Below, in pieces: positions 11,632 to 30,322 of a stretch of 64,000 bases of DNA. Each line of letters begins with the position of its first letter. Within the stretch, counting starts at the first letter, position 1. A program made the translations under genes and the position numbers. The DNA is from a virus (lineage: Duplodnaviria > Caudoviricetes), in IMG/VR virus record IMGVR_UViG_3300033273_000833, positions 128,001 through 192,000 of that record. One strand, 5' to 3'. The notes beneath the pieces are model-generated. The model was given only the letters and a program-made list of their open reading frames with translations, ran no database searches and had not been told where the DNA came from.

Positions 11632-12170
11632 TTTCAAATACAATTAACAATATAATCCCTTTACCCATCCATATTAATAAACTATATACTTATATACTAG
11701 ATCATAATAGCGAATATATACAATAAAAAGATAAACGAATTTTATTTAAATAATTGATTAATAAAGGTTTAGATTAAAAATACAGAGAAGTGGGTTGAAG
11801 TGGGGGAAAGTGGGTGAGTGTGGTACGCGACTTAAATATATAAAAATATAAGTTAAATTAAAATATTGTAAATTGCGTCAAAAATAAAAGAAATAAATAA
11901 ACTAAATTTTTTTTGATATAGCCAAATAACTTAATAAGAAAATTAATAAAGTATAATGAACAAACTACAAATAAATTTTAATCAAATAATTGCAAATAAC
12001 AATATGAAAGATAGCCGACTTAATTTAATAAATTTTTTTATACATTTTTGCGTTTTAGTTAAATAAAAATTTGAATGAAATCGGGCGAAATAAGATGAAA
12101 AAAAATAGAATAAAATATAATAATTAATTATACTAAATTTTTTGTTGAATTCGGGCGAAATAAAAATGCA
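11632..12170. other. Long AT-rich non-coding gap, origin or regulatory region candidate
   Basis: No ORF of 60 aa or more in an otherwise densely packed region; contains phased GTGG boxes and a 13-bp direct repeat. Confidence 0.5.
11788..11824 (+). promoter_or_regulatory. Four GTGG boxes at 10-bp period (MraZ/DCW-box-like or iterons)
   Basis: GTGG at 11790, 11800, 11810, 11820; first three are AAGTGGG. Confidence 0.55.
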
Positions 12171-13208: not shown

Positions 13209-13462
13209 TGGATGCAACAATTAAACCAATTAATAATAAGGTTAGTATGTTCGCAACTGATGAAGAATTATATGAACAATTAACTGCAAAAGAATTAATG
13301 TTAATTAAGTTGGTTAAAGTAGAAGAATATGTAGATGATTTATATAGAGCACATGATTCTGATACAAATAAAAAATTATTTCCACCTGAGAAGAGTTGGT
13401 TTAAAATAAAAGAATTATTAAGAGAGTGCAGAAAAATTAATAAAAGTAAAATAAATACTTGA
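13208..13462 (+). CDS. Hypothetical protein
   Basis: TAATG coupling. Confidence 0.65.
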   Translation: MDATIKPINNKVSMFATDEELYEQLTAKELMLIKLVKVEEYVDDLYRAHDSDTNKKLFPPEKSWFKIKELLRECRKINKSKINT

Positions 13463-13493
13463 CAAATAAGACTAAATATACTATAATTATATA

Positions 13494-13834
13494 CATAAAT
13501 TGAGAAACAAACTCAAATAAATAAAATAAATTGATCTTTAACATTTTTAACACTTTGGAAGGGCTTATAATCCTTCCTGTGGGTGACTGAACAAACCTGT
13601 CGTAAGCGGGTTAAAGTATGCAGATCCCTGTGGTGGGGATGACAGAGTCCAATCGGATGAGTCAAATGGCAAATACCACGCCTAGTCTGTAGTTCAAAGT
13701 AGGAAACTCGAAACTGAAAGTTTACGCCGAAAAGATGGAGGTATCTCAGAATCCTCCCCCACACTATATTTCCCCATCCGTGTAACCCCCACACATCCCG
13801 CCCCTCTCAGGAATATTCTTGAGAGGGGTTTTTT
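13494..13834 (+). ncRNA. Candidate structured non-coding RNA with boxA leader
   Basis: Perfect TTGACA-17-TATAAT promoter with no ATG at +1, boxA-like TGATCTTTAACA, multiple GC-rich stems, strong terminator. Confidence 0.7.
13801..13834 (+). terminator. Rho-independent terminator
   Basis: CCCCTCTCAGGA / TCTTGAGAGGGG stem followed by TTTTTT. Confidence 0.9.
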
Positions 13835-14316: not shown

Positions 14317-14447
14317 GTAAAGGGTTGAGCGTCAGTGTTTTGCGGAATCGCCCTGCCAAATTTCGCAATTATATGGTATTCAACAACTTACGAATCACAA
14401 AGTAGTTTTTTGCAATTTTCGCAATTATATGGTATTCAACGACTTAC
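14317..14447. repeat. 27-bp degenerate palindrome, three copies (one inverted)
   Basis: Inverted copy 14317-14343; GCAATTATATGGTATTCAACAACTTAC 14365-14391; GCAATTATATGGTATTCAACGACTTAC 14421-14447. Confidence 0.85.
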
Positions 14448-14501
14448 GACTATTTTAAAAAAAGGCTTGACTTGCGGAAGTTTTCTGTCATAATTGTATA
14501 C

Positions 14502-14879
14502 ATGATCAGAACAAAAAGCGACAAGAGATACGACATCGACTTTAGTAAGAAGGTGTTTGTATATAAGAATCTTCATAAAGACTGTTGGTCAGTCAAACAA
14601 GGCGGGCTTGTCAAGGCACACGCAGACAGCTTGGAGATGTGGGATTGCAGCTTCCAAGTAAACCAAAAGGGGCGGGCAAAAGTCATTCAAGAAAAGCGTA
14701 AGAATGTTCATGCGGGCATTTCAGGCAGGATAGACGATCTTGGTGGAACAATTGCAATTGGCACAGAAGTTACATACAACCCGTACAAGTATAGCTCTTT
14801 TGTAGAAAAAGGCACAGAAAATCCCGTATATTATGCAGGATTTGCATCATTAACCCATAACAGAGTACTAGTAGCATGA
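14502..14879 (+). CDS. Conserved hypothetical phage protein (leaderless)
   Basis: VYKNLHKDCWSV...FQVNQKGRAKVIQEKRKNVHAG...YNPYK pattern widespread in aquatic phages. Confidence 0.8.
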   Translation: MIRTKSDKRYDIDFSKKVFVYKNLHKDCWSVKQGGLVKAHADSLEMWDCSFQVNQKGRAKVIQEKRKNVHAGISGRIDDLGGTIAIGTEVTYNPYKYSSFVEKGTENPVYYAGFASLTHNRVLVA

Positions 14880-15076
14880 AAGAAGAATTAAAAAGAATAG
14901 AATGTGCAATCGACGGAGTCGCCGACGAATTATTAGAACATCGTCGTCATGGAAACATGGCGGATCTACTCAGAGTTATGCGGGACATTAATGAAAATCT
15001 ATGCACCATCAGCTATGAGCTCAAAGAGTTAGTTAATCAGAAAAAAAACCTTGACATTGAACAAAAAATTTCATAG
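14876..15076 (+). CDS. Hypothetical coiled-coil protein
   Basis: ATGA overlap. Confidence 0.7.
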   Translation: MKEELKRIECAIDGVADELLEHRRHGNMADLLRVMRDINENLCTISYELKELVNQKKNLDIEQKIS

Positions 15077-15085
15077 TATTATATC

Positions 15086-15253
15086 ATGCAAGAAACAATA
15101 GATATCACACCAAAATGGTCAGCACTCATTCCTATTATGGTTGAGGTGTTGAAGAGTCCAAAAGCAAACAGCTCAGCAAAAGCAGAAGTCACCGAAGAAC
15201 TACTTCGTCTCGCAAAGATTGTAGACGATCAAAACCAAAAAGCAAAACAATGA
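15086..15253 (+). CDS. Small hypothetical protein (leaderless, 55 aa)
   Basis: TTGACA-17-TAGTAT-6-ATG; MQETIDITPKWSALIP... Confidence 0.75.
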   Translation: MQETIDITPKWSALIPIMVEVLKSPKANSSAKAEVTEELLRLAKIVDDQNQKAKQ

Positions 15254-15474
15254 CATTATCAGAATCAATTATGGATATCGTTAGAGGTAACCTCGCATGG
15301 TCAGATCCCATGTCAACAGTTTGCCTCGATCAACATGAGCGTCATCCCGAAAAGTTTCCACTAGGGAGTGCATTCCAAAGTGAAGATGAATCTTTAGCAG
15401 ATATCATTAGAGACTTGACAGTATTACAAGATGAGCGTAGAATAGAATCATCTTTTCAATCAGCAGAACTATAA
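15250..15474 (+). CDS. Hypothetical protein
   Basis: ATGA overlap. Confidence 0.7.
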   Translation: MTLSESIMDIVRGNLAWSDPMSTVCLDQHERHPEKFPLGSAFQSEDESLADIIRDLTVLQDERRIESSFQSAEL

Positions 15475-15478
15475 AATT

Positions 15479-15682
15479 ATGACAGTATTAGACACACCCG
15501 AACAAATCGATATGTTTCGATTCCTTAGCCTCAAATCCGCACTCAAGCTAGAGTGTCTTGGAATGACTAGAAGAGGTCAATCAGCATATTCAATTATTAA
15601 AGCCGAGTACGGATTCAAAGGCAACAAGAACTCCGTCTTAGAACAAATGGAACAAATTATCAAGGAGTTTAAAAATGACTAA
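15479..15682 (+). CDS. Conserved hypothetical phage protein
   Basis: LDTPEQI..F....LKSALKLE..GM....SAY..IK...G.KG pattern common in aquatic phages. Confidence 0.75.
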   Translation: MTVLDTPEQIDMFRFLSLKSALKLECLGMTRRGQSAYSIIKAEYGFKGNKNSVLEQMEQIIKEFKND

Positions 15683-15878
15683 AGCACAGGTTGAATCACA
15701 AGTAGAGAGTTGGAATTGGAATCTCAATATCTTTGAGATTTATGATGAGCTCCGCGATGGGTATACCGCAGACGAGCAAGAACAACTTTTAACTTACGCA
15801 TATAATTTTTTCAATAAAGATAAAATGATGGTAGAACTTGCGTCCCACTTTGGAATTAACATAGGAGAAGATGAATAG
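15675..15878 (+). CDS. Hypothetical protein
   Basis: Operon packing. Confidence 0.7.
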   Translation: MTKAQVESQVESWNWNLNIFEIYDELRDGYTADEQEQLLTYAYNFFNKDKMMVELASHFGINIGEDE

Positions 15879-16032
15879 TTCAGCATTAGAATATATCCGT
15901 AAGATCCAAAATCTTTTAGAAGACAACGAAGAACTCGTAATCCATAAAAATTCTTTTGAACTTAAAGATGAAGAAAATGAAGAGAATTATGATTTTGATG
16001 TTGACATGATCAAGCAAATGTACGATAATTAA
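15871..16032 (+). CDS. Small acidic hypothetical protein (53 aa)
   Basis: AGGAG RBS, overlap with upstream gene; not in ORF track. Confidence 0.55.
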   Translation: MNSSALEYIRKIQNLLEDNEELVIHKNSFELKDEENEENYDFDVDMIKQMYDN

Positions 16033-16035
16033 ACC

Positions 16036-16293
16036 ATGACAAACACAATGCAAAACAATTACTTAGAAGCCCTATGCGAGGGAAAACCACTCGGATTACC
16101 CGAATACAACGAAGGTACAGAACAATGGGAGCTTTTCTTTGAAGAGAACCACGACGATTGGCATCCGTACTTTCAGAGAGATATAATTTCATATAGTTGT
16201 GACTCAGCTGAGGAAGCTACAGACTTATACAACTATTACAACAGAAACCCAATAGTGGCAGAACCACTAGTAGAAGAAGGAGAACAATCCTAA
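16036..16293 (+). CDS. Hypothetical acidic protein
   Basis: ORF track, operon packing. Confidence 0.7.
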   Translation: MTNTMQNNYLEALCEGKPLGLPEYNEGTEQWELFFEENHDDWHPYFQRDIISYSCDSAEEATDLYNYYNRNPIVAEPLVEEGEQS

Positions 16294-16529
16294 TGTTAAG
16301 GAAACTCAAAAACAAGTTAGCTGCTTTGTTCAGCTCAACCTATAATGTCGTGTATACTACCGAAGATGGTAGGACGCAAATGTACACCATCTCCAAGCCC
16401 ATGCACAAGCGTGAGTTTGGCAACGCTAGCGAGGGCAAGAGAGTCGTAGGCTTTCGTGCTCATTGCTTTAACCGCAACGGAATTCGTTCTTTCCGTTATG
16501 ATCGTATCATCTCTTTGGTTAGGGGGTAA
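16293..16529 (+). CDS. Stand-alone WYL-like domain protein
   Basis: C-terminal FRAHCFNRNGIRSFRYDRIISL matches the WYL signature (A.C..R...R.FR.DRI). Confidence 0.6.
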   Translation: MLRKLKNKLAALFSSTYNVVYTTEDGRTQMYTISKPMHKREFGNASEGKRVVGFRAHCFNRNGIRSFRYDRIISLVRG

Positions 16530-16532
16530 GAT

Positions 16533-16697
16533 ATGCAGAAGCGAATCGAACACTTAAGGCGCCAAGTTCGCGAGTTAGCTCATATGCTAGCTAGCGAAGA
16601 GGCGGAAGGCATTTATTTATCAGAGCATAACGAGCGCAGGTCTCGCCATAATGCGCTACTAGAAGAGCTCTATCATCTAGAGAAACGAGTCTTTTAA
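16533..16697 (+). CDS. Small hypothetical protein (54 aa)
   Basis: MQKRIEHLRRQVRELAHML... fills gap before terminator. Confidence 0.6.
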   Translation: MQKRIEHLRRQVRELAHMLASEEAEGIYLSEHNERRSRHNALLEELYHLEKRVF

Positions 16698-16732
16698 TTT
16701 CATGGTCATATCGTAATCGGTGGTTAGTGTAT

Positions 16733-16760
16733 GCCCCCTCCAATTGGAGGGGGCTTTTTT
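16733..16760 (+). terminator. Rho-independent terminator
   Basis: GCCCCCTCC-AATT-GGAGGGGGC followed by TTTTTT. Confidence 0.9.
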
Positions 16761-16828
16761 GTTGGTAATCAACGTTTTATGAAATTTTCCTAAGCGATCT
16801 TGCAATTATATGATATTCAACAACTTAA
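16754..16828. repeat. 27-bp palindrome locus (degenerate upstream site plus full copy)
   Basis: TGGTAATCAACG centred 16767; GCAATTATATGATATTCAACAACTTA 16802-16827. Confidence 0.75.
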
Positions 16829-16892
16829 GATAACTGCAAAAAAAAATTATTTTTTGCTTGCAATTAACTCACAATCTGTCATAATTATATAT

Positions 16893-17012
16893 ATGAAAAC
16901 GACAGAGATAAAGATAAGAAAACCGATCCTTTTCACTAAGGCTCGCCCGCACAAACTTAAAAACAAAATCATACATAGAAAGCTGAAGCACAAAAAATCT
17001 TTAATTTCCTAA
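16893..17012 (+). CDS. Small very basic peptide (39 aa, leaderless)
   Basis: TTGCAA-16-(TG)CATAAT-7-ATG; MKTTEIKIRKPILFTKARPHKLKNKIIHRKLKHKKSLIS. Confidence 0.6.
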   Translation: MKTTEIKIRKPILFTKARPHKLKNKIIHRKLKHKKSLIS

Positions 17013-17057
17013 AATTAATTCTTGACAAAACACTAAAACTCAACTATTATTATACTT

Positions 17058-17906
17058 ATGAATAACGAACAAAAAACCAACAATCTCCGCATCTGTGGCG
17101 GTGAGCACAAAGTAGTAGAAATCGACCAAGTTAGAGCAGTTCAGACTCCGCCTATCGAGTTTCGTAAGGAACTCAACAAGAATGGCGAGCGTTCAATCTC
17201 TTACCAACCGATCTCTCATTCTCTTCTTATTGATAAAACTCGCAATCATCTTGAGCAAGCGGGCTTTACTATCGAGGCAGAGTGCCATAACCTAGCGAGA
17301 AACGATCAAAGATACTTTGGTCTGTACCAAGTTTCTCATCCTAAAAGAGAAGCTTCAGACCGAGGCACTATCGTAGGGCTTCGCAATGCCCATGACAAGT
17401 GCTTCCCTGCAGGACTTTGTGCAGGTGATGCTCCTTTTGTCTGTGACAATCTTATCTTTACCAACGAGGTCAAACTTGCTCGTAGGCATACCAAGAACAT
17501 TCTCAATGAGCTTGACCATGTTATTGCTCGTACTCTTGGCAGACTCTTCAACTTTTGGGTTGCCCAAGATAGTAGGATTGATGCCTACAAAGAACATGAG
17601 CTTAAAAATGCTCAAGTCAACGATCTTGTGATCCGTGCTTGCAAGGCAGGTGCTTTGCCTAAGTCAAAGATCATTGATGTTGTTGACCAATGGGAGAAAT
17701 CCGATCATCCCGAATTTTGGGATAGGAATGTAAACTCATTGTACAACGCTTTCACAGAGGTTTACAAGGGTAACCTTACCGCATTACCTCAACGCTCCGA
17801 AGCATTGCACTCCGTGCTTGACTCCGAAGTGGGCTTTGATTCATCAAGCTTTAAGCAGGATGAGATAATCGAAGCCGAGGTAGTCGGTGCAGGTGACCCC
17901 TTCTAA
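17058..17906 (+). CDS. DUF932-family protein
   Basis: YQPISH...GLRNAHDKCFPAGLCAG...FVCDNLIF...RHT...SLYNAFTE pattern. Confidence 0.8.
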   Translation: MNNEQKTNNLRICGGEHKVVEIDQVRAVQTPPIEFRKELNKNGERSISYQPISHSLLIDKTRNHLEQAGFTIEAECHNLARNDQRYFGLYQVSHPKREASDRGTIVGLRNAHDKCFPAGLCAGDAPFVCDNLIFTNEVKLARRHTKNILNELDHVIARTLGRLFNFWVAQDSRIDAYKEHELKNAQVNDLVIRACKAGALPKSKIIDVVDQWEKSDHPEFWDRNVNSLYNAFTEVYKGNLTALPQRSEALHSVLDSEVGFDSSSFKQDEIIEAEVVGAGDPF

Positions 17907-17932
17907 GGTTGCTGGTCATATCGTGTCGTTCA

Positions 17933-17960
17933 GCCCCCTTCCAATCGGAAGGGGGTTTTT
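17933..17960 (+). terminator. Rho-independent terminator
   Basis: CCCCCTTCC-AATC-GGAAGGGGG followed by TTTTT. Confidence 0.9.
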
Positions 17961-17965
17961 CTTTT

Positions 17966-18040
17966 GCAAGTGACTGAGTATCAGTTAATTGCGAAAATCG
18001 CCTAAGAAAAATTTTAATTATATGATATTCAACGACTTAT
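17966..18040. repeat. 27-bp palindrome locus (inverted copy plus forward copy)
   Basis: GCAAGTGACTGAGTATCAGTTAATTGC 17966-17992; TTAATTATATGATATTCAACGACTTAT 18014-18040. Confidence 0.85.
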
Positions 18041-18105
18041 GACAAAGTGAAAAAAAATGAAAAAAGGGGTTGACAGATGTCCCCAACTTGTCTAGTATTG
18101 TATAC

Positions 18106-18846
18106 ATGATTAAAACGACACTACTCACTTCAGGTAACCAAAAAATTGTCAAGGGCGAAAAACTTGGTTACATCACAAAAGGAATTCACTTAGCTCCAGC
18201 CAACCTTGCGGGCTACGAAGTTTGCCAATGGCGTTCTAAAGGTTGCACAATGGCTTGTTTAAACACAGCAGGTCGTGGTCAAATGAATTCCGTTCAAGCT
18301 TCACGCATTGCCAAGACAAAGTTATTCTTTGAACAGAAAAAAGATTTCATGATTAAGCTTTGCAAAGAAATCGCTTCAACAATCAAATCTGCAAACAAGA
18401 AAGAAATGAAAGCGGTTTTCCGTCTCAATCTCACAAGTGACATCGCATGGGAAGATGTTTACATGAAAGATCCAAACTATAACATTTTTGAATACTTTTG
18501 TGCAGAACAATTCTACGACTACACAAAGTCATTCAAGAGAATGTGTGCTTATCTTGGCAAGCCATTCACTAAAGATGAACAAAAATTTCCATCTAATTAT
18601 CACTTAACCTTTTCTCGCTCAGAGCATAACGATAAGAAGTGCGAAATGGTGCTTGCTATGGGTGGGAATGTTGCCGTTGTGTTTCGCAATCAACTTCCTA
18701 AGACTTGGAAGGGTTATGAAGTTGTCAATGGTGATGATACCGACTTGCGTTTCTTAGACAAGAAAGGAGTGGTCGTTGGGCTTATCGAAAAAGGTATGGC
18801 AAAGAAAGATGAGACAGGCTTCGTACAGGAAGGAGTGGACTCATGA
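18106..18846 (+). CDS. Gp88-like phage protein (leaderless)
   Basis: LAPA...C...S.GC..ACLNTAGRG...RIAKT..F...RLN.TSDI.WE...FYDYTK...YHLTFS.SE...GDD.DLRFLD..G..VGL..KG.A. Confidence 0.75.
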   Translation: MIKTTLLTSGNQKIVKGEKLGYITKGIHLAPANLAGYEVCQWRSKGCTMACLNTAGRGQMNSVQASRIAKTKLFFEQKKDFMIKLCKEIASTIKSANKKEMKAVFRLNLTSDIAWEDVYMKDPNYNIFEYFCAEQFYDYTKSFKRMCAYLGKPFTKDEQKFPSNYHLTFSRSEHNDKKCEMVLAMGGNVAVVFRNQLPKTWKGYEVVNGDDTDLRFLDKKGVVVGLIEKGMAKKDETGFVQEGVDS

Positions 18847-19010
18847 GCGATACTTATTACGACTCAGCCGAATCCGTTATGATATCACAAGAGCGGGCAT
18901 TTCAAGAGCTTACAAACCACGGTTGCCAAGAATTCGAAGAGTTCCTGGCGGACATGGGCGACAAGGAAGAATACTCAGCTCAGGCAGTGCTTGAATGGCT
19001 AGGATATTAA
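18843..19010 (+). CDS. Small hypothetical protein (55 aa)
   Basis: ATGA overlap; ends YSAQAVLEWLGY, a phage-typical pattern. Confidence 0.7.
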   Translation: MSDTYYDSAESVMISQERAFQELTNHGCQEFEEFLADMGDKEEYSAQAVLEWLGY

Positions 19011-19047
19011 ACACTTTAAAACAATTAAAAATTTTATACAATCATAT

Positions 19048-19212
19048 GTGGACTACGAAGAATATATTTTTTGCCTTTACCTTTTTAATGAATGCGCGCA
19101 GGACCTGGACGGATTCCTGGAAGCCTTTGACGTTATCGACATGGCCTTTCCGCGAACTTGCAGAGTTTTAGCGGACCAGGGATTCTTTCATAAAGACTTG
19201 TGCTTCAATTAA
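19048..19212 (+). CDS. Possible small protein (GTG start, 54 aa)
   Basis: VDYEEYIFCLYLFNECAQDLDGFLEAF... open frame in GC-richer island. Confidence 0.4.
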   Translation: MDYEEYIFCLYLFNECAQDLDGFLEAFDVIDMAFPRTCRVLADQGFFHKDLCFN

Positions 19213-19381
19213 TTGCAAGAAAACCCTATCCATTTTTGCAAGACGTTGAACCATAGGCATTTATAAAATCAAAACTATACAGACAAAAATTAAAATCGAA
19301 TTTACTGAAAAAAAAGGTTGACTTTACTTAAAAAAATGTCATACTTATAGGTATAGATTAACTTAACAAAGGAATATTATT

Positions 19382-19789
19382 ATGGGATTAGATCAGTCAG
19401 CATACGCAACTAAAGACAATCAACACGAAGATATAGCTACATGGAGAAAGCATAACAGGCTTCAAGGTTGGATGGAAGACTTATGGGAGCACAAAGGTAG
19501 ACCAAACTTTAACAAAGCAGACGCTACTCCGATGGGCGACTTCAACTGCATACCCGTAGAACTAACTCTCGAAGACATTGATTCACTAGAATATGCAATC
19601 AACAACTTTGAGCTACCCGAAACAGGTGGATTCTTTTTCGGCAATGATTCTTATTTTTGGACAGATGAAGAAGGTAATCCTTATCCCGATAATCATTACT
19701 ACTACAAAGACAATGATCTTTATTTCATCAAGAAGGCTCGTGATCTAATCAACAAAGGTTGGAAAGTATTCTACGACTCTTGGTGGTAA
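19382..19789 (+). CDS. Conserved hypothetical phage protein
   Basis: MGLDQ.AY...WRKHNRLQGWM...FNC..V.LT.EDI..LE......LPET.GFFFG...VFYDSWW family pattern. Confidence 0.85.
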   Translation: MGLDQSAYATKDNQHEDIATWRKHNRLQGWMEDLWEHKGRPNFNKADATPMGDFNCIPVELTLEDIDSLEYAINNFELPETGGFFFGNDSYFWTDEEGNPYPDNHYYYKDNDLYFIKKARDLINKGWKVFYDSWW

Positions 19790-19833
19790 AAAAACTCTTG
19801 ACATAACAACTTTAATTTTATAGAATTTATATT

Positions 19834-20208
19834 ATGATTAAAGCACTAAAATCATTCGATGACTTAAAATTCGGTCCTCATCCTCACGCAAAAGACATGG
19901 GAGTTGTAGCAAGTCTAACTCTTGACAATGGCTACGCTTTTAGCGTTGTCGCCAATACTGAAGGCGGTAATCTGTTTTACGGCAATCATCCCGATAACTA
20001 TGAGGTTGCAGTATTTAATCCAGCAGGTCAATTCGTTCCTCTCTCTGTTTCGGACGATGTAATTGGTTGGCAACCTCCACATCAAATCACTTCATTAATG
20101 CATCAATTTGAGATTGACGGATTTCTTCATGAAAAATTACTCGTTGATCTTCGATCAGAATTCAATGAAAAAGTACTAGCGGAGCAAGAAGCAAGATTTA
20201 ACGCTTGA
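19834..20208 (+). CDS. Conserved hypothetical phage protein (leaderless)
   Basis: FDDLKF...NGY..SVV....YG....YEVAV...DVIGW pattern; TTGACA-17-TAGAAT-7-ATG. Confidence 0.8.
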   Translation: MIKALKSFDDLKFGPHPHAKDMGVVASLTLDNGYAFSVVANTEGGNLFYGNHPDNYEVAVFNPAGQFVPLSVSDDVIGWQPPHQITSLMHQFEIDGFLHEKLLVDLRSEFNEKVLAEQEARFNA

Positions 20209-20262
20209 CTTTTAATCAATCTTATACTATACTTATATCATAACAATCAGATAAACTAAACT

Positions 20263-20499
20263 ATGACAAAAAAACAAAAACAAGCACTAAGTAAGGTTAA
20301 AACCTATACTCCTCATAATGTCAACAATCGTGACGAAAAGATTTGGTTCACATATGTTAACAAGAACAGAGTTCCCGTCTCTGCTTACTACGATACAACT
20401 AACGGATCATTCGTATCAGTTGTCAAGGGTTCTCAGTACAATGGCATCGCATTCCGTAAGGGCGTCGCCAAGAGAGTAATCTCAAAGATTCTTGGGTAA
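20263..20499 (+). CDS. Hypothetical basic protein
   Basis: Own promoter near 20205. Confidence 0.75.
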   Translation: MTKKQKQALSKVKTYTPHNVNNRDEKIWFTYVNKNRVPVSAYYDTTNGSFVSVVKGSQYNGIAFRKGVAKRVISKILG

Positions 20500-20576
20500 T
20501 GGAACTACTATTTTTCACTCCGTGGATATTCGTATTTTATATGATGTTCTCGGATTTGTTAAGTGAGGATTCATAG
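20499..20576 (+). CDS. Tiny hydrophobic peptide (25 aa)
   Basis: TAATG coupling; MELLFFTPWIFVFYMMFSDLLSEDS. Confidence 0.4.
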   Translation: MELLFFTPWIFVFYMMFSDLLSEDS

Positions 20577-20603
20577 TCGTTTATATCTTAGGTCAACTAC
20601 AAG

Positions 20604-20634
20604 CCCGCTAGCCTAAAAACTAGCGGGTTTTTTT
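20604..20634 (+). terminator. Rho-independent terminator ending the rightward early block
   Basis: CCCGCTAG / CTAGCGGG stem followed by TTTTTTT. Confidence 0.9.
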
Positions 20635-20746
20635 GTAAATAGGCAAATAGGCCAAATATAGATAAATAGGAGAGAATTTCGAGCGGTTTTCGAACTAACC
20701 AATTCAACTAAAAAGTTGTAAAATTCTTTTTTGCCTCCCCAGTTTC

Positions 20747-20773
20747 GCAATTATATGATAATCAACGACTTAC
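20747..20773. repeat. 27-bp palindrome copy
   Basis: GCAATTATATGATAATCAACGACTTAC. Confidence 0.85.
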
Positions 20774-20925
20774 TGACTAGATAAGATCGGGGCTTTTGTT
20801 TTTTTGCTGAGCTTGCGGGCTATACGCATGGCGTTCGCGTGGCTCGTGGCGTTGTCTACTAGCTTGCCAAAAAGTCTGATATCAAACCAATTGGTAAAGT
20901 TTGGGTTTTTGTCTACATTTATCAT
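20770..20925 (-). CDS. Small hypothetical protein (51 aa), paralogue of 23638-23814
   Basis: MINVDKNPNFTNWFDIRLFGKLVDNATSHANAMRIARKLSKK...; not in ORF track. Confidence 0.7.
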   Translation of the reverse strand: MINVDKNPNFTNWFDIRLFGKLVDNATSHANAMRIARKLSKKTKAPILSSQ

Positions 20926-20929
20926 AGTA

Positions 20930-21115
20930 TTATGCAAAGAATGGATGAAGCCTTACATCCGAAAAGCGGATGCCAACCTTGCGGTTGGTGCGATACGGGC
21001 GAACCATTGCGATTCTTCCGAGATCTTCATGATCTGTTGGTTTGATAAACTCGAAGAGTTTGCCGTCGCGTGAAATGAGCAAATCGCCCTTTTTGAATTG
21101 ATCTCCGTAAGCCAT
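20930..21115 (-). CDS. Hypothetical protein, possible small beta-barrel
   Basis: QFKKGDLLISRDGKLFEFI... Confidence 0.65.
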   Translation of the reverse strand: MAYGDQFKKGDLLISRDGKLFEFIKPTDHEDLGRIAMVRPYRTNRKVGIRFSDVRLHPFFA

Positions 21116-21121
21116 AATTTT

Positions 21122-21304
21122 TTAGTGTTGAGTTACTACATTGAAACGAGGAGAGTTGAGATTCTCTTCTCTTTTGATTGTTCTAAGGTGTGAAAGACTT
21201 GAGGCAGTCCGAACCCGTGGGTAATCGGTTCCTGTGTCGAAGATCTTAACAGACCAATGCGTTGACCATTTTTTGATTCTAACTTGTATTTTATCGTTTA
21301 ACAT
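21122..21304 (-). CDS. Hypothetical protein (leaderless, 60 aa)
   Basis: TTGCAA-17-TATAGT-6-ATG places start at MLNDKIQ. Confidence 0.7.
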   Translation of the reverse strand: MLNDKIQVRIKKWSTHWSVKIFDTGTDYPRVRTASSLSHLRTIKREENLNSPRFNVVTQH

Positions 21305-21356
21305 ATTATTACTATAAGAAATTTTTTTTGAAATTGCAAGAAAAAAGTGATTTTTT

Positions 21357-21542
21357 TCACTCCCATTCGGAGTGAAAGCCCCAATCAATGTCGGGCTGTT
21401 CCTCAAAGTCGAGGAGGGCAACCTTATCTTGAAGGTCGCCGATTTCGTTGCGGATCGCAACGCGATCAGCGGAAGTGAGAACGGAGTCCGCAAGGACTTC
21501 GTGGAGGAGAGAGATTTTGTCGAGCATTTCAGTTTTAGTCAT
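21357..21542 (-). CDS. Hypothetical protein
   Basis: Own promoter (-35 ends 21611). Confidence 0.7.
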   Translation of the reverse strand: MTKTEMLDKISLLHEVLADSVLTSADRVAIRNEIGDLQDKVALLDFEEQPDIDWGFHSEWE

Positions 21543-21674
21543 ATCTTTTTTTTGGTTAAATTGTTTATCTTAGTATATGTATAACATAGCACAGAAAAGG
21601 GCAAAAGTCAAGTTTTTTTTGAAAAAAGATTCGATTATTTTTTTGCACAATTATATTTTTGCCTAGCCAGATTT

Positions 21675-21701
21675 GCAATTATCTGACTTTCAACGACTTA
21701 G
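21675..21701. repeat. 27-bp palindrome copy
   Basis: GCAATTATCTGACTTTCAACGACTTAG. Confidence 0.85.
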
Positions 21702-22006
21702 AAGACAAGAGGATCGGGCAATGAATTAGGAGCCGCGAACCAATCGTTTGCGTCAATTACTTCGCCGTTTAGTACAGGCTCGAATTTGAATTGAGAAACA
21801 TTTGCATTGGCTATGCCGTTGACGCGTTCGCGTGTGGTCGGAGTATTCCAGCCCGCAAGTGACCAACGCACAAGCCCGTCGGCGTCACGCTTTACAATTG
21901 CGTTGCCATGTAGCCAAACGGTTTGCCCGTCTGTCTCGGTGTTTCCGACTTTTAAGGATGTGCCAGCATTGAAGGCGTTTCTTATTTGTTCTGTAACTTT
22001 TCTCAT
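21698..22006 (-). CDS. Conserved hypothetical phage protein
   Basis: MRK....I..AF......K.GNT.......V.LHGN.I......L..AGW.T.TT.ER.NG pattern. Confidence 0.8.
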   Translation of the reverse strand: MRKVTEQIRNAFNAGTSLKVGNTETDGQTVWLHGNAIVKRDADGLVRWSLAGWNTPTTRERVNGIANANVSQFKFEPVLNGEVIDANDWFAAPNSLPDPLVF

Positions 22007-22033
22007 ATCTTTATTATTAATGATTTTGTGTGA

Positions 22034-22243
22034 TTATGCAAGCGGAAAAAAGGAAAAAAAGAGTTTTTGTGCAAGTAAATTTTGTGCCCGCTCTTCGGCT
22101 TCTTCTTCTTGCTGTTCTAGTTTCTCAAGATCAATTTCTGCCTGAATTACTTTTATTTGAGATTGGATGTGTCCAGCGTTTGCATCGAAGACATGATCTT
22201 TGATAAGTTGCTCTAGTTTACTGATTTCTTTTTTTATGTTCAT
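22034..22243 (-). CDS. Hypothetical coiled-coil protein (leaderless)
   Basis: TTGCAA-17-TATAGT-6-ATG. Confidence 0.7.
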   Translation of the reverse strand: MNIKKEISKLEQLIKDHVFDANAGHIQSQIKVIQAEIDLEKLEQQEEEAEERAQNLLAQKLFFSFFPLA

Positions 22244-22295
22244 GATATAACTATAAGAAAATTTTTATTTAATTGCAAGCTAAAAAGAAAGTTTT

Positions 22296-22487
22296 TTACG
22301 CAACCCACTCGACAAGCTCGAACTTGCGAGGCAAGCCAAACTTTGCGAGATCTTTGTTTAAGTCTTCAATGGATGCGTGGTGCTCGCATTTCATCATTAC
22401 ATTACGCTCGACGACTTCGCCGCTTTTGCGATCAATTATATTTACTTTGGCGATGAAGCCGTTTACTTGTTTATCATTTTTAATCAT
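22296..22487 (-). CDS. Hypothetical protein
   Basis: Own promoter (-35 ends 22521). Confidence 0.7.
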   Translation of the reverse strand: MIKNDKQVNGFIAKVNIIDRKSGEVVERNVMMKCEHHASIEDLNKDLAKFGLPRKFELVEWVA

Positions 22488-22574
22488 ACCTTACTATCGC
22501 ATAAAAAACGCAAAAAGTCAAGAAAAACTTTCGACTATTTTTTTGCACAATTCTACTTTTGGTAGGCTAGTCTC

Positions 22575-22601
22575 GCAATTAGCTGACTAGCAGTAACTTA
22601 G
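22575..22601. repeat. 27-bp palindrome copy (degenerate)
   Basis: GCAATTAGCTGACTAGCAGTAACTTAG. Confidence 0.7.
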
Positions 22602-22862
22602 GTAATCGTCTATATCGTCGAAGTTTGCATATGCAAAAGGTGTGCTTCGCTGTCTTGTACCACTATTATAGGCAGATTGTGCATCTTCTAGTATTCCAAG
22701 CTTCTTGAGATAGGATATTGCACCTTTATCGTAGAATGGCACACCATGGTAGCCTAGCGTCCAGGCGAAGTCAATTGCTTTGTCGGGGTCATCATCTAAG
22801 TAGGCATCCTTGGCGATCTTGCCTGATTCTCTCATTTTAGATTCTAATTTTGTATAGCTCAT
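22587..22862 (-). CDS. Hypothetical protein
   Basis: TAATG coupling to upstream gene. Confidence 0.7.
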   Translation of the reverse strand: MSYTKLESKMRESGKIAKDAYLDDDPDKAIDFAWTLGYHGVPFYDKGAISYLKKLGILEDAQSAYNSGTRQRSTPFAYANFDDIDDYLSYC

Positions 22863-23098
22863 TACTTAGCCTTTCTTTCTTTGTAGATTACTGCTTGGTA
22901 TGCCTTGCGAGCTTCTTGCACTGCATGGAGAGCGTCGAGGATTGCCATGCCTTGGGTGATGGTCAAGGTTTGGTCGCCTTCGGTGTTGGTTGACTCGGCA
23001 AGGAAGTTGAGGTTACCCTCGGCTTTAGATAGGGCAAGCCCTAGGTCGAGCTTGCTACGAAACTTGTCGATTGTTGTAGTTGTAGTTGTAGTTGTCAT
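22862..23098 (-). CDS. Hypothetical protein with N-terminal poly-Thr
   Basis: Own promoter; ACAACT microsatellite encodes MTTTTTTTT. Confidence 0.7.
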   Translation of the reverse strand: MTTTTTTTTIDKFRSKLDLGLALSKAEGNLNFLAESTNTEGDQTLTITQGMAILDALHAVQEARKAYQAVIYKERKAK

Positions 23099-23132
23099 AT
23101 GTGTTATATACTAAGGTAGTTGATGTTAAAAG

Positions 23133-23327
23133 TCAAGCATTTCTTTCTACTGATTTCCATCCAAAAGCTTTTACTTTATCTTGATGGCGGGCTTGTGGCA
23201 ACATTGCCTTGAGTTCAGCAATGCGGGCGAGCTTCCAATCTATCTCGCTTTGATCCATTTTACCTTTCCACATTTGCATTTGTAGTTTGTCTAATCTTAT
23301 TTCTCTTTGTATTTGTTCTTCTGTCAT
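23133..23327 (-). CDS. Hypothetical protein (leaderless)
   Basis: TTGACA-17-TAGTTT-6-ATG. Confidence 0.75.
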   Translation of the reverse strand: MTEEQIQREIRLDKLQMQMWKGKMDQSEIDWKLARIAELKAMLPQARHQDKVKAFGWKSVERNA

Positions 23328-23370
23328 ATCTATAAACTAGCAATCTTTTCTTGTTTTGTCAAACTTTATT

Positions 23371-23448
23371 TTACTTTTTTTTAGCTATTACAAACTTAAG
23401 TAAAATCTTTTCTCTTTCAGTTAGTTGTGTTGTATCAATCTTTATCAT
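23371..23448 (-). CDS. Tiny peptide (25 aa, leaderless)
   Basis: TTGACT-17-TATGTT-6-ATG; MIKIDTTQLTEREKILLKFVIAKKK. Confidence 0.5.
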   Translation of the reverse strand: MIKIDTTQLTEREKILLKFVIAKKK

Positions 23449-23536
23449 ATATACAACATAGCAAAGAAATGCTAAAAAGTCAAGAAAAACTTTAAACTAT
23501 TTTATTGCACAATTCTACTTTTGCTAGAGCAATCGC

Positions 23537-23563
23537 ACAATTATATGACTATAAGCAACTTAC
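23537..23563. repeat. 27-bp palindrome copy between divergent promoters
   Basis: ACAATTATATGACTATAAGCAACTTAC. Confidence 0.7.
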
Positions 23564-23637
23564 AACAAAGTGAAAAAAACTTTAATTTTTTTTAAAAAAC
23601 ACTTGACTTTTGCAGAAAAATTTCTTATATTTAGAGC

Positions 23638-27915: not shown

Positions 27916-28644
27916 ATGCCACGTAAAAAAACTACGAAAAAAGAAGAGGCGTTCAAAATCCCTCAATTAGCTAGCCCAGGTTTTAAAGTTGAAAATAAAA
28001 AATTAACTGAAAGACAAAAAGAGTTCCTATCCCTTTCTTTAGATCAAGATACGCGCATAATGTTTGTATGCGGGCCAGCAGGAAGTTCAAAAACTTATAT
28101 GGCTGTTTATTCCGCATTAAGGCATTTAAGCAATAATGATGATTATGATTTAATGTATATTAGAACTGTAATTGAAAGTGCTGATAAGGGGCTTGGCGCT
28201 TTACCAGGCGATATTGCGGATAAATTTAATCCATATATAGCTCCTTTAAAAGATAAATTAGATGAAATGCTACCAGCTAAAAATACTGCACCCTCAGTCA
28301 TGAAAGAATTAATGGATCAAAGAGTAGATGCGCTACCCATTAACTTCCTTAGGGGCGCTAACTGGATTAATAAAATAGTTGTAGCAGACGAGGCTCAAAA
28401 CTTTACTTTCAAGGAATTAACAACTCTCGTAACGCGATTAGGTGAAAATAGCAAACTATTCATTTGTGGAGATTTTATGCAGAGTGATATTAATGGAAAA
28501 AGCGGCTTCGGGCCAATGTACGATATCTTTGATGACGAAGATAGTAAATTGAAAGGCATTCATTGCTTTCGATTTACAAAAGATGACATCATGCGAGATG
28601 AATTACTTAAATTTATTATTGGAAAACTTGAAAATAGAAAATAA
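27916..28644 (+). CDS. phoH: PhoH-like ATPase
   Basis: GPAGSSKT Walker A, RTVIE, GALPGD, FLRG, DEAQN, TRLGENSK, GD..QSD. Confidence 0.95.
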   Translation: MPRKKTTKKEEAFKIPQLASPGFKVENKKLTERQKEFLSLSLDQDTRIMFVCGPAGSSKTYMAVYSALRHLSNNDDYDLMYIRTVIESADKGLGALPGDIADKFNPYIAPLKDKLDEMLPAKNTAPSVMKELMDQRVDALPINFLRGANWINKIVVADEAQNFTFKELTTLVTRLGENSKLFICGDFMQSDINGKSGFGPMYDIFDDEDSKLKGIHCFRFTKDDIMRDELLKFIIGKLENRK

Positions 28645-28662
28645 AGGTGTATATCTTTATAT

Positions 28663-29229
28663 ATGGAGCTAGTCGCAGCAATAATAGGAGCAATATCTAC
28701 GCTATTTGGGGTATATTTAACCCATAAGCTAAGGGTATCTAAGGATCCTTTACCTAAAGATATAGATAGAAATGATAACATTTATACTGCTTTATCGTAT
28801 CTTATTGAAGAAACTGAAGCTGATAGATGCTATGTATATGAATTTCATAATGGGGATTATTATTACAGTGGAAATTCTCAACAAAAATTCAGCAATACAT
28901 ATGAAATAGTCGAAGAAGGTATTAGTTCTGAGTCAGAAAGAGAGCAAAATTTAAGAGTATCAAGTTATAACTTTTTTATTAAACAATTAATTAATGAAGG
29001 TGGAGTTTGTTACGCAAATACAGAAAAAATACCCGACCCTTTGTTTAAGGAAAGAATGCATAATAAAGGTATAGTTAGCATTTCTTGCGTACCAATTAAG
29101 TTGTTGAATGGGAAAATAATAGGTATTTTGGGGGTAGATTACGTAAAGCATAAAAATAAATGCGATGAAACTATGTTTCAATTACTGAGAAATCAAGCTA
29201 GAATTATTAGCGGTTACTTAGGCGAATAG
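28663..29229 (+). CDS. Membrane-anchored GAF-domain protein (holin candidate)
   Basis: N-terminal TM helix; ADRCYVYEFHNG...SISCVPIK...IIGILGVDY GAF pattern. Confidence 0.6.
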   Translation: MELVAAIIGAISTLFGVYLTHKLRVSKDPLPKDIDRNDNIYTALSYLIEETEADRCYVYEFHNGDYYYSGNSQQKFSNTYEIVEEGISSESEREQNLRVSSYNFFIKQLINEGGVCYANTEKIPDPLFKERMHNKGIVSISCVPIKLLNGKIIGILGVDYVKHKNKCDETMFQLLRNQARIISGYLGE

Positions 29230-29262
29230 TTGAATTTTAATTAAATAATTATATAATTAACT

Positions 29263-29613
29263 ATGAATATAGTTTATTGTACTAGTTGTGGCCACAAAAT
29301 CGAATATACATCTCCTTCGCCAAAATTTTGTCCTTCATGTGGTAGTAGTATGGGTAACTCAAGCGCGTCTGTAGCTAGCAGCGCCTCAGTCGAAAATACT
29401 ATTGTTGAAGAAAAGATACCATCTATATCTAAATTAGAATATGAGATAGATGCAAGCAATGGAAATCGAGTAATCTCAGGAAGCGATATACAAAATATAT
29501 CAGAATCTCCTAAAAGAAAAATTTCCAATAGCCAAGGAGGCAATGAAGATCTTATCAAAGAAGGTATGCAGTTATGTAGGCAAAGTAAAAAGCAGACCGA
29601 TATTGATGGGTAG
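29263..29613 (+). CDS. Zinc-ribbon protein
   Basis: YCTSCGHK...KFCPSCG. Confidence 0.8.
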   Translation: MNIVYCTSCGHKIEYTSPSPKFCPSCGSSMGNSSASVASSASVENTIVEEKIPSISKLEYEIDASNGNRVISGSDIQNISESPKRKISNSQGGNEDLIKEGMQLCRQSKKQTDIDG

Positions 29614-30322
29614 AAAAAAGAAACTTAAATACGAAGATTGCGTAGATGTAATTGATAACGAACTACGTAAAAGGAAGCACAAGTGGAGACTGCATGCGCT
29701 TGCATGGATGGATTATGACGATGTTCAGCAAATTATAAGAGCTCATATTTATAAAAAATGGGATCAATGGGACCAAAAGAGGGGACTGGCTCCTTGGATA
29801 AATAAAATTATATCCAATCAAATTAAAAATATATTCAGGAATTACTATACTAATTTTGCAAGACCATGCCTGAACTGTCCTTTTGCGCAGTCATCTGCCA
29901 GTGAACATGAAGAGGGTCATACAGGATTATGCGGATTTACCCCAAGCGGCGTACAATGTTCAGAGTGCCCGCTATACTCAAAGTGGGAAAAAACTAAAAA
30001 AAGCGCTCATGACATAAAAATGCCCTTAGCTCTAGAGCATCATCCCCAAGAAGTTTATAATATATCAGAGCAGTTAACAGATATTTCCGACGCTGAAAAA
30101 AAGTTGCATACTCTTATGCGCACTAAATTGTCTGAAAAGCATTATATTATTTATGATATGATTTACATTCAACATATGCCAGAGGATAAAGTTGCCGAAA
30201 AAATGGGATATAAGAGTAACGAAAAAGGAAGAAAAGCTGGGTACAAACAATTAAAAAATTTAAAAAAGATTTTTGTGGAAAAAGCGAAAGAAATTATTGA
30301 CAAGAAAGATATTATAATATGA
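29606..30322 (+). CDS. Phage RNA polymerase sigma factor (ECF-like) with Cys-rich insertion
   Basis: sigma2-like DYDDVQQ...LAPWINKIISNQIKN; sigma4-like LSEKHYIIYDM...EDKVAEKMG; CLNC...C...CSEC between them. Confidence 0.75.
   Translation: MGRKKKLKYEDCVDVIDNELRKRKHKWRLHALAWMDYDDVQQIIRAHIYKKWDQWDQKRGLAPWINKIISNQIKNIFRNYYTNFARPCLNCPFAQSSASEHEEGHTGLCGFTPSGVQCSECPLYSKWEKTKKSAHDIKMPLALEHHPQEVYNISEQLTDISDAEKKLHTLMRTKLSEKHYIIYDMIYIQHMPEDKVAEKMGYKSNEKGRKAGYKQLKNLKKIFVEKAKEIIDKKDIII

What the first reader, a model, noticed from the sequence alone, without database searches (positions are those of the whole stretch)
14317..23608. Dispersed 27-bp palindromic element held in helical phase with early promoters
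Seen: about 11 copies of a degenerate palindrome, roughly GCAA(T/G)T-N3-TGA-N3-TCA-N3-ACTT(A/G)C, only in 14.3-23.6 kb. Forward copy centres are 14378, 14434, 16815, 18027, 20760, 21688, 22588 and 23550; partner sites are at 14330, 16767 and 17979. Spacing is non-random: the partner-to-main distance is 48 bp at all three loci; centre to downstream -35 is 33, 43, 43 and 53 bp; centre to the leftward (minus-strand) -35 is 67, 67 and 77 bp. A CCT(A) motif sits 26 bp left of five centres. Orientation on the + strand is constant even where transcription reverses, and the 23550 copy lies between divergent promoters. Inference: a dimeric DNA-binding protein (phage or host) acts on these promoters from a fixed helical face, defining a separately regulated sub-region, perhaps the first-injected DNA. 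An alternative is recombination sites for shuffling gene cassettes.
Basis: partly seen in the sequence, partly recalled or inferred. Interest (0 to 1): 0.8.

Follow-up and report, generated by a model that had tools for sequence, protein, structure and literature searches.

The report
Paired palindromic sites bounding early cassettes
An uncultured 203-kb marine phage marks the boundaries of its early gene cassettes with a conserved two-fold symmetric DNA site that looks like a docking place for a still unidentified DNA-binding or DNA-bending protein, and the same paired element occurs in many other large uncultured aquatic phages.

Summary
The window comes from an uncultured 203-kb marine phage. 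It holds 13 copies of one dyad-symmetric site, all within 14.3-23.6 kb and nowhere else in the genome.

Relatives show what the site is: a family-wide 29-bp palindrome, CGTAAGTCGTTGA-N3-TCAACGACTTACG. It normally comes in pairs around a GC-rich core, at a fixed distance for each genome (41-58 bp; 48 bp here). One pair sits at each boundary between early transcription units, usually 30-55 bp upstream of a host-type promoter.

- **Protein site, not hairpin:** both halves keep the same invariant triplets (YAA, TTG) but do not co-vary.
- **IHF resemblance:** each half equals the IHF core (TCAA-N4-TTR).
- **No binder identified:** the phages carry no HU/IHF, HTH, ParB, integrase or Y1 transposase gene, and no gene's presence tracks the sites.
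- **Phasing:** 10-bp phasing with promoters holds loosely for rightward promoters and not for leftward ones.
- **Cassette exchange:** cassettes between the sites are swapped among relatives, as with PeSL elements of T4-type phages.

This scan had already noted the same kind of element in other uncultured large phages. It is a new variant of a known kind. The binder and the function are untested.

The parts
14317..14343 (.). Partner (A) site of the first composite, centre 14330
   Evidence: Symmetric matrix score 22.2; lies 48 bp left of the 14378 site
14365..14391 (+). Main (B) site, centre 14378
14421..14447 (+). Second main site, centre 14434, 33 bp before the -35 box at 14467
16754..16780 (.). 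Decayed partner site, centre 16767; directly abuts the terminator at 16733-16754
   Evidence: Score 8.5; 48 bp from 16815; terminator
16802..16828 (+). Main site, centre 16815, 43 bp before the -35 box at 16858
17966..17992 (.). Partner site, a near-perfect palindrome, centre 17979; follows the terminator at 17932-17957
18014..18040 (+). Main site, centre 18027, 43 bp before the -35 box at 18070 (promoter of the GP88-family gene)
19190..19264 (.).
   Evidence: Scores 10.8 and 13.5; spacer. Each site alone is at chance level; the 48-bp spacing and the spacer make the pair credible
20747..20773 (+). Main site, centre 20760, at the switch from rightward to leftward genes
21675..21701 (+). Main site, centre 21688; the stop codon of the leftward gene 21698-22006 lies inside it
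22575..22601 (+). Main site, centre 22588; the stop codon of the leftward gene 22587-22862 lies inside it
23537..23563 (+). Main site, centre 23550, between divergent promoters
14467..14494 (+). Host-type promoter (TTGACT-16-CATAAT) with a start codon a few bases after the -10 box
16858..16885 (+). Host-type promoter downstream of the 16815 site
18070..18098 (+). Host-type promoter (TTGACA-17-TAGTAT) downstream of the 18027 site
23603..23631 (+). Host-type promoter downstream of the 23550 site
21583..21611 (-). Leftward promoter (TTGACT-17-TATGTT with TG) of the conserved ~150-bp leftward module
22493..22521 (-). Leftward promoter of the same module
23455..23483 (-). Leftward promoter of the same module
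17932..17957 (+). Intrinsic terminator that closes the preceding unit just before the composite
20601..20630 (.). Two-way terminator hairpin between the rightward and leftward blocks

Best explanation
The 27-bp motif is this phage's version of a family-wide 29-bp palindrome, [Y-A-A]-N4-[T-T-G]-A-N3-T-[C-A-A]-N4-[T-T-R]. It is a docking site for a two-fold symmetric DNA-binding, probably DNA-bending, protein.

The ancestral unit is a composite of two such sites around a GC-rich core. One composite sits at each boundary between early transcription units: after the end of one unit, and usually 30-55 bp upstream of the -35 box of the next host-type promoter. In this phage the promoter-distal site has decayed, so the surviving sites look polar.

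**Inferred mechanism.** The bound protein shapes the DNA upstream of the promoter. This would place the site centres at roughly -65 to -90 and -115 to -140 relative to the transcription start (my estimate from the -35 distances). It thereby sets the activity of, or insulates, each early unit.

**The binder is not identified.**
- The sequence fits the host protein IHF best, since each half-site is the IHF core.
- An unrecognised phage protein is equally open.

**Side effect.** The roughly 80-bp repeats, all in the same orientation, serve as seams where cassettes are exchanged between related phages.

**Shown:** the sites, their symmetry, their conservation, their position and their distribution.
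**Inferred:** that a protein binds, and what it does.
For: **Real and confined.**
- 15 pattern matches against 0.38 expected.
- No copy elsewhere in 203 kb.
- The same clustering is seen in whole relatives: G001 has 28 of 33 sites in 1.9-16.7 kb, and G004 has all 16 in 67.6-77.4 kb.

**Family-wide consensus.** It was built from 392-397 distinct sites. TAA, TTG, CAA and TTA are nearly invariant (0.96-0.98 at the core positions), while positions between them and the central three bases vary.

**No co-variation between the two halves.** Symmetric matches are 7.86 of 13 against 7.82 for shuffled halves. The symmetry is therefore kept by sequence, as for a dimer's site, and not by base pairing.

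**Purifying selection.** Against strains about 88% identical, the motif is 94.4% identical. The other nearby intergenic DNA is 77-87% identical, and the promoter stretch is 90-94%.

**Pairs at a fixed distance within each genome.** This holds in nearly every relative. It also holds in 60 of 69 further viral stretches with two or more pairs.

**Position.** The composite lies between a terminator or stop codon and a sigma-70-type promoter.

**IHF core.** The half-site matches WATCAR-N4-TTR at every conserved position (consensus from 10.1101/382655). The 20747 copy reads AATCAACGACTTA.

**Constant invariants across divergent phages.** The same invariants recur in phages that share few or no proteins with this one. 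This argues for a conserved binder.
Against: **No binder found.**
- No HU/IHF gene in this phage, in four relatives, or in 42 further element-bearing records.
- No HTH_3, HTH_17 or ParB domain.
- No Pfam DNA-binding domain in 30 genes of the region.
- No gene whose presence or absence follows the sites.

**Dispensable.** Relatives without the palindromes (G003, L041) keep the same gene backbone and promoters, so the sites are not essential.

**Geometry does not fit a single IHF dimer.** The two inverted IHF-like cores are 2 bp closer than one IHF dimer could read symmetrically. This rests on my recollection of the 9-bp kink spacing in the IHF-H' structure.

**Host unknown.** The phage tmRNA tags hint at cyanobacteria, which as far as I know lack IHF proper.

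**No shared helical phase.** Pair spacings of 42, 48, 50, 52 and 58 bp do not share one phase.

**Not needed by every early promoter.** Many strong early promoters inside the cassettes have no site.
Confidence: 0.6

Rival explanations
1. The element is a recombination seam only. On this view it is a PeSL-like repeated promoter/boundary module, kept because its homology lets co-infecting phages swap cassettes by homologous recombination. No dedicated binding protein is involved.
For: - Between close relatives, sequence is replaced just downstream of the module promoters, at about 21357-21620 and 22299-22513.
- Alignment breakpoints between relatives are enriched at the sites: 31% lie within 120 bp against about 20% expected, and the 0-30 bp bin is the largest.
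- The leftward half is hyperplastic. Small-gene families recur in different combinations between the elements.
- All copies are direct repeats, which permits exchange without inversion.
- PeSLs behave this way (PMC2839356; PMC4122927).
Against: - Homology alone does not explain a position-specific pattern: invariant triplets separated by free positions, the same in phages that share almost no proteins.
- It also does not explain two-fold symmetry, or a pair distance fixed to the base within a genome.
- Breakpoint enrichment is expected for any conserved island in intergenic DNA.
Confidence: 0.15
2. The element is a target of site-specific recombination or transposition. It would be an integron attC-like or REP/MITE-like selfish element that inserts in one orientation between genes.
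For: - One element per cassette, in constant orientation whatever the gene direction.
- Presence or absence differs between related phages at the same intergenic places.
- The composite has inverted-repeat ends.
Against: - No tyrosine recombinase and no Y1/RAYT transposase in five genomes.
- attC and REP sites are read as folded single strands and keep structure rather than sequence. Here the sequence is kept and pairing is not.
- I saw no target-site duplications in the sequences printed.
Confidence: 0.07
3. The element is a hairpin or cruciform acting at the nucleic-acid level. Possibilities are a terminator, an RNase III-type processing site, or an N4-like hairpin promoter.
For: - In some relatives the palindrome could form a 12-13-bp stem with a 3-base loop.
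- The GC-rich core is a true small hairpin with varied tetraloops in some lineages, for example L316.
Against: - There is no compensatory change between the arms.
- In this phage only 7 of 12 arm positions pair.
- Most sites lie in DNA that should not be transcribed, after a terminator and before a promoter.
- No Rfam family matches.
- The palindromes lack G+C-rich stems and T-runs.
Confidence: 0.03

Closest known systems
PeSL (promoter-early stem-loop) cassettes of T4-type phages (Arbiol et al. 2010, PMC2839356; Comeau et al. 2014, PMC4122927)
   Same: - A repeated composite of a boundary motif plus a near-consensus sigma-70-type early promoter.
- Concentrated in a hyperplastic region of small unknown genes.
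- Cassettes differ between close relatives at these elements.
   Different: - A PeSL is a G/C stem-loop plus a promoter. Here the conserved part is a pair of 29-bp dyad-symmetric sites with no pairing constraint, flanking a GC-rich core and lying upstream of the promoter.
- The phages are unrelated to T4. The large terminase is only 23-25% identical to any cultured phage, and the nearest are Clostridioides, Clostridium and Bacillus phages.
IHF binding sites (core WATCAR-N4-TTR), such as the lambda H' and H1 sites (10.1101/382655). From memory, IHF sites also lie upstream of lambda pL and Mu Pe.
   Same: - Each half-site carries TCAA-N4-TT(A/G) with exactly the IHF spacing and the same invariant bases.
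- The location upstream of sigma-70 promoters is where IHF is known to act.
   Different: - Known IHF sites are asymmetric, with one core and often an A-tract on the other side. Here two cores face each other 3 bp apart, and further positions (outer CG, A22) are conserved.
- No IHF gene is in the phages, and the host is unknown.
Dispersed operator sets of phage repressors: phiC31 conserved inverted repeats, P1 C1 operators, L5 gp71 stoperators (from my own knowledge)
   Same: One short protein-binding word is repeated at many promoters or gene boundaries of a phage genome, giving one regulator control over a whole block.
   Different: - Those systems have an identified phage repressor, and sites that overlap the promoter or lie in the transcribed strand in a set orientation.
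- Here no cognate gene was found, the sites lie upstream of the promoter, and they come in fixed pairs.

Membership tests
PeSL cassettes | Near-consensus sigma-70-type early promoter as part of the repeat | tested here: met
   TTGAC(A/T)-16/17-(-10) promoters lie next to 7 of the sites
PeSL cassettes | G/C stem-loop (terminator-like) directly upstream of the promoter as the conserved partner motif | tested here: not met
   The conserved partner is a 29-bp palindrome whose arms do not co-vary. True terminators are separate elements. The GC-rich core is a hairpin only in some lineages.
PeSL cassettes | Lie in hyperplastic regions and flank genes that differ between close relatives | tested here: met
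PeSL cassettes | Carried by T4-type myoviruses | tested here: not met
   The large terminase is 23-25% identical to cultured phages, none of them T4-like. No nucleotide match in the phage collection.
IHF binding site | Core WATCAR-N4-TTR | tested here: met
   Family matrix: T16 0.70, C17 0.83, A18 0.98, A19 0.75, T24 0.96, T25 0.98, A/G26 0.97. The window copies have 0-2 mismatches in the right half.
IHF binding site | Asymmetric site: one core, with the other half A/T-rich or an A-tract | tested here: not met
   The other half carries a second, inverted core. In this window the left half is A/T-rich (GCAATTATATGA) but still keeps YAA and TGA.
IHF binding site | An IHF protein is available (host or phage) | tested here: inconclusive
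   No PF00216 gene in 47 phage records. The host is unknown, so host IHF cannot be checked.
Phage repressor operator set (phiC31 CIR, P1 C1, L5 stoperator type) | Cognate DNA-binding repressor encoded by the phage | tested here: inconclusive
   No known DNA-binding domain found. No gene with a matching presence/absence profile. A novel fold cannot be excluded.
Phage repressor operator set (phiC31 CIR, P1 C1, L5 stoperator type) | Site overlaps the core promoter or lies within the transcribed region | tested here: not met
   Site centres usually lie 30-55 bp upstream of the -35 box. The only overlaps are weak promoter-like matches at 21678-21650 and 22578-22550, which are not conserved in relative G003.
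Integron attC / REP-type elements | Structure conserved with free sequence; a dedicated recombinase or Y1 transposase | tested here: not met
   Sequence is conserved without pairing constraint. No PF00589 or PF01797 gene.

The most novel reading that the evidence does not exclude
A whole clade of large (about 130-240 kb) uncultured marine and freshwater phages shares one rigid cis-element: two mirrored IHF-core palindromes around a GC-rich core. Through it, a single conserved architectural protein would switch on or insulate every early gene cassette. That protein could be the host's IHF-class protein used in an unprecedented symmetric double-site mode, or a phage protein of unknown fold. The same element would double as the seam of a cassette-exchange system that builds the phages' accessory-gene repertoire.
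Probability: 0.25. Interest if true: 0.75.

Novelty: new variant of a known kind. Interest (0 to 1): 0.6.

Why it matters
Early regions of large uncultured phages are full of small genes of unknown function, many of them likely host-takeover and anti-defence genes.

- **A practical handle.** A rigid, easily recognised boundary element upstream of unit-initial early promoters marks the early regulon and its cassette borders in metagenomic contigs.
- **A route to the regulator.** The element offers a short bait for pulling down the regulator.
- **A clue to the host.** If the binder is a host protein, the element also points to the still unknown hosts.
- **A wider principle.** It extends the PeSL idea, that regulatory repeats also drive modular gene exchange, to a phage group far from T4.

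Tried and rejected
1. **Nucleotide searches against cultured phages.** The region gave no match. A composite and a perfect palindrome gave only chance-level partial matches. The best of these, Burkholderia phage WTB, has no site by the matrix.
2. **Literature search for the motif letters.** It returned only primers in unrelated papers.
3. **Scan of bacterial genomes for the stringent palindrome.** More than 120 hits came back.
   - Most are long generic hairpins with fully co-varying, extended stems after tRNA genes or ORFs in many phyla.
   - They have no recurrent neighbouring gene.
   - I read them as the chance tail of ordinary hairpins, not as host evidence.
   - Three short MAG contigs (L153, L158, L173) carry the true paired composite and are probably binned phage fragments.
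4. **A pair of small proteins with an N-terminal KRGRPKG motif (L093, L097).** They first fitted the profile 'present with sites, absent without'. They were rejected because the gene is present in the site-poor G010 and absent from the site-rich, 93%-complete G013. They have no Pfam match.
5. **Synechococcus phage S-SKS1 as a possible relative.** It did not appear in the GP88 or terminase searches, and its gene content is unrelated.
6. **Polarity test of the composite in relatives with 52-bp spacing.** It was inconclusive: 11 of 20 and 24 of 52.
7. **Public sequencing runs.** Only assembled contigs were available, nearly all DNA. A few short RNA contigs fall inside genes. Nothing can be said about transcript ends.
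8. **One viral-collection scan was wasted** on a pattern with one N too many.
9. **Cassette clustering by translated DNA search.** Everything merged into one group, so it was replaced by ORF families.

Full report
**What the window is.** The window is bases 128,001-192,000 of a single 203,067-bp, 34% G+C virus contig.
- It has no nucleotide match among cultured phages.
- Its large terminase is only 23-25% identical to any of them.
- The stretch 14-24 kb is a run of small, mostly unknown genes. The first block is rightward (14.5-20.5 kb) and the second is leftward (20.8-23.3 kb).
- Pfam hits there are limited to an L5 gp82-like protein, DUF932, a GP88-family protein and a Kyano_Gp96-like protein.
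- The region is dense in near-consensus sigma-70-type promoters, with the start codon a few bases after the -10 box.

- A weight matrix of the eight forward copies finds them at 41-52 bits and nothing else in the genome.
- The CCT word 26 bp to the left is present at six sites.
- A fourth, decayed pair at 19203/19251 has the same 48-bp spacing and the same A-run/CCCTA/T-run spacer.

**Relatives show what the motif is.** I took 47 related loci around GP88 homologues and iterated a symmetrised matrix over them. It converged on 392-397 distinct sites with the consensus CGTAAGTCGTTGA-N3-TCAACGACTTACG.
- The triplets TAA and TTG and their mirror images are almost invariant. Positions 5, 7 and 8 and the central three bases are free.
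- In this phage the right half keeps the family sequence. The left half reads GCAATTATATGA, which still keeps G, AA, T and TGA.

**The unit is a pair.** In relatives the sites come almost always in twos.
- The centre-to-centre distance is constant within a genome: 52 bp in most, 55, 48-50 or 42 in others, and 48 here.
- Between the two sites lies a G+C-rich core, flanked in many lineages by an A-run and a T-run.
- There are about 8-14 composites per genome, one between consecutive transcription units. Each follows a terminator or a stop codon and precedes a promoter.
- In whole genomes the sites are confined to one 6-15-kb region: G001, G002, G004 and G013.

**The element is widespread.** A capped scan of the viral collection for the stringent palindrome returned 119 stretches.
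- 86 of them hold at least one pair.
- 60 of the 69 with two or more pairs keep one spacing to within a base. The modal values are 41/42, 48-50, 52/53 and 57/58.
- Many of these stretches share few or no proteins with this phage.
- By the completeness estimates of the records that are held, they belong to phages of roughly 130-240 kb.

**Protein site or hairpin?**
- If the arms had to pair, the free positions should co-vary. They do not: 7.86 symmetric matches of 13 against 7.82 when left and right halves of different sites are combined. No variable inner position exceeds the shuffles.
- Against strains about 88% identical, the motif is 94.4% identical. Most of the surrounding intergenic DNA is 77-87% identical, and the downstream promoter stretch is about as conserved as the motif.
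- No Rfam family matches.

I conclude that the sequence itself is read, on both halves, by a two-fold symmetric protein. This is an inference from the conservation pattern, not a demonstration of binding.

**Who binds?** The conserved positions of each half, T-C-A-A, four free bases, then T-T-(A/G), are the IHF core WATCAR-N4-TTR (consensus as given in 10.1101/382655). I noted this before I saw that another agent of this scan had reached the same reading on a different phage.

*Against a simple IHF site:*
- Known sites are asymmetric.
- The two inverted cores are about 2 bp too close for one dimer to read both, by my recollection of the H' structure.
- Extra positions are conserved.

*No phage-encoded candidate emerged:*
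- No HU/IHF gene in 47 records.
- No HTH_3, HTH_17 or ParB domain.
- No gene with a fitting presence/absence profile across five site-bearing genomes and the site-less G003.
- A tempting pair of KRGRPKG mini-proteins failed the profile.

*Host or phage protein?* The same invariants persist across phages that are only about 50% identical at the protein level or unrelated. That suits a host protein or a very conserved phage protein better than a fast-evolving repressor.

*The host is unknown.* The tmRNA tags of two relatives begin ANNIV/AKNIV, which I recall as cyanobacterium-like. The window also carries a manA RNA.

**Phasing.**
- In the window the four rightward distances differ by exact tens.
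- With 74 non-identical rightward pairs, the distances form three clusters (30-33, 41-47, 49-53) with a broad period near 10 bp.
- The 52 leftward pairs show none.
- The sequences share ancestry, so three module types would give the same picture.
- The pair spacings of different genomes are not in a common phase.
- The helical-face idea is therefore possible for rightward promoters but not established.

**Orientation.**
- In the window all good copies point the same way, whatever the direction of transcription.
- At rightward units the good site is next to the promoter. At leftward units it is next to the end of the preceding gene. There, the promoter-side position holds a different conserved element, ATTGTGCAA followed by an A-run and TAGTTGAA.
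- That element and the GC-rich core persist in relatives that lack the palindromes altogether (G003, L041). These relatives have the same gene backbone, so the palindromes are an add-on to an older boundary module and are dispensable.
- In relatives with two good sites, the composite is too symmetric for its polarity to be scored.

**Cassette exchange.**
- The rightward backbone is conserved in order.
- The leftward half differs between genomes in number, order and content of cassettes. A few small-gene families recur in different combinations.
- Close relatives have replaced sequence just past the module promoters.
- Alignment breakpoints are enriched at the sites.
- No integrase or Y1 transposase exists in these genomes. 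Exchange, if it uses the elements, is by homology, as proposed for PeSLs (PMC2839356; PMC4122927).

**Verdict.**
- The feature is real and under selection, and it is much wider than the window.
- The best reading is a paired protein-docking boundary element upstream of early promoters, with cassette exchange as a by-product.
- The binder and the direction of the effect (activation, shut-off or insulation) remain open.
- I found no description of it in the searchable literature.
- This scan has flagged the same class of double-palindrome elements in several other uncultured large phages.

Noticed in passing
window 13557-13767 (+): Full-length match to the manA RNA family (RF01745, 85 bits against a gathering score of 55), just upstream of the first composite. 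An earlier follow-up of this scan already described it.
   Followed up: partly
window 21620-21660, 22530-22560, 23490-23525 (- strand reading); also L021 (G003) 11921-11983, 13421-13483, 15278-15340: A second conserved upstream element lies between the GC-rich core and the leftward -35 box: ATTGTGCAA, an A-run, then TAGTTGAA. It survives in relatives that lack the palindromes. In the window it overlaps promoter-like matches (TTGCAA-17-TATAAT at 21678-21650) whose -10 box is not conserved in G003.
   Followed up: partly
window 20770-23327 (- strand genes): This is a hyperplastic block of about nine small leftward genes in roughly 900-960-bp units. Each unit is headed by the same ~150-bp module, and paralogous small-gene families are shuffled among relatives.
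   Followed up: partly
genome 90989-91195 and 116615-116848 (loci L093, L097), outside the window: Two paralogous small proteins (68 and 77 aa) start with an AT-hook-like KRGRPKG motif. They have no Pfam match, and homologues occur in several relatives. They do not track the palindromes.
   Followed up: partly
genome 66699-67062 (outside the window); G001 55016-55391; G002 169776-170138; G003 66721-67082: Each of these phages carries a one-piece tmRNA. The tags are GNKNRVKAFGLKAKKLALAA (this phage), ANNIVRFEDFTACGEELALAA, AKNIVSFEDFVHSEELALAA and AKNINSVESFSQEGLALAA.
   Followed up: no
window 27916-32859 (+): A run of genes just right of the early region: PhoH, a GAF-domain protein, a sigma-70 region-2 protein, a 2OG-Fe(II) oxygenase and a protein with an N-terminal C2H2 zinc finger. 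PhoH and the sigma-like gene recur next to the palindrome arrays in other viral contigs.
   Followed up: no
L101, L103, L114, L115, L129, L136 and others (one WOR-3 MAG); L127, L157, L167, L169 (a Hydrothermia MAG): These bacterial MAGs hold many copies of a ~215-bp repeat whose centre happens to fit the stringent palindrome pattern. It looks like a separate REP-like family.
   Followed up: no
window 16552-16762 (+): Weak, sub-threshold match to GcvB RNA (25.8 bits, E 0.024). It ends at the terminator at 16733-16754 and is probably chance.
   Followed up: no
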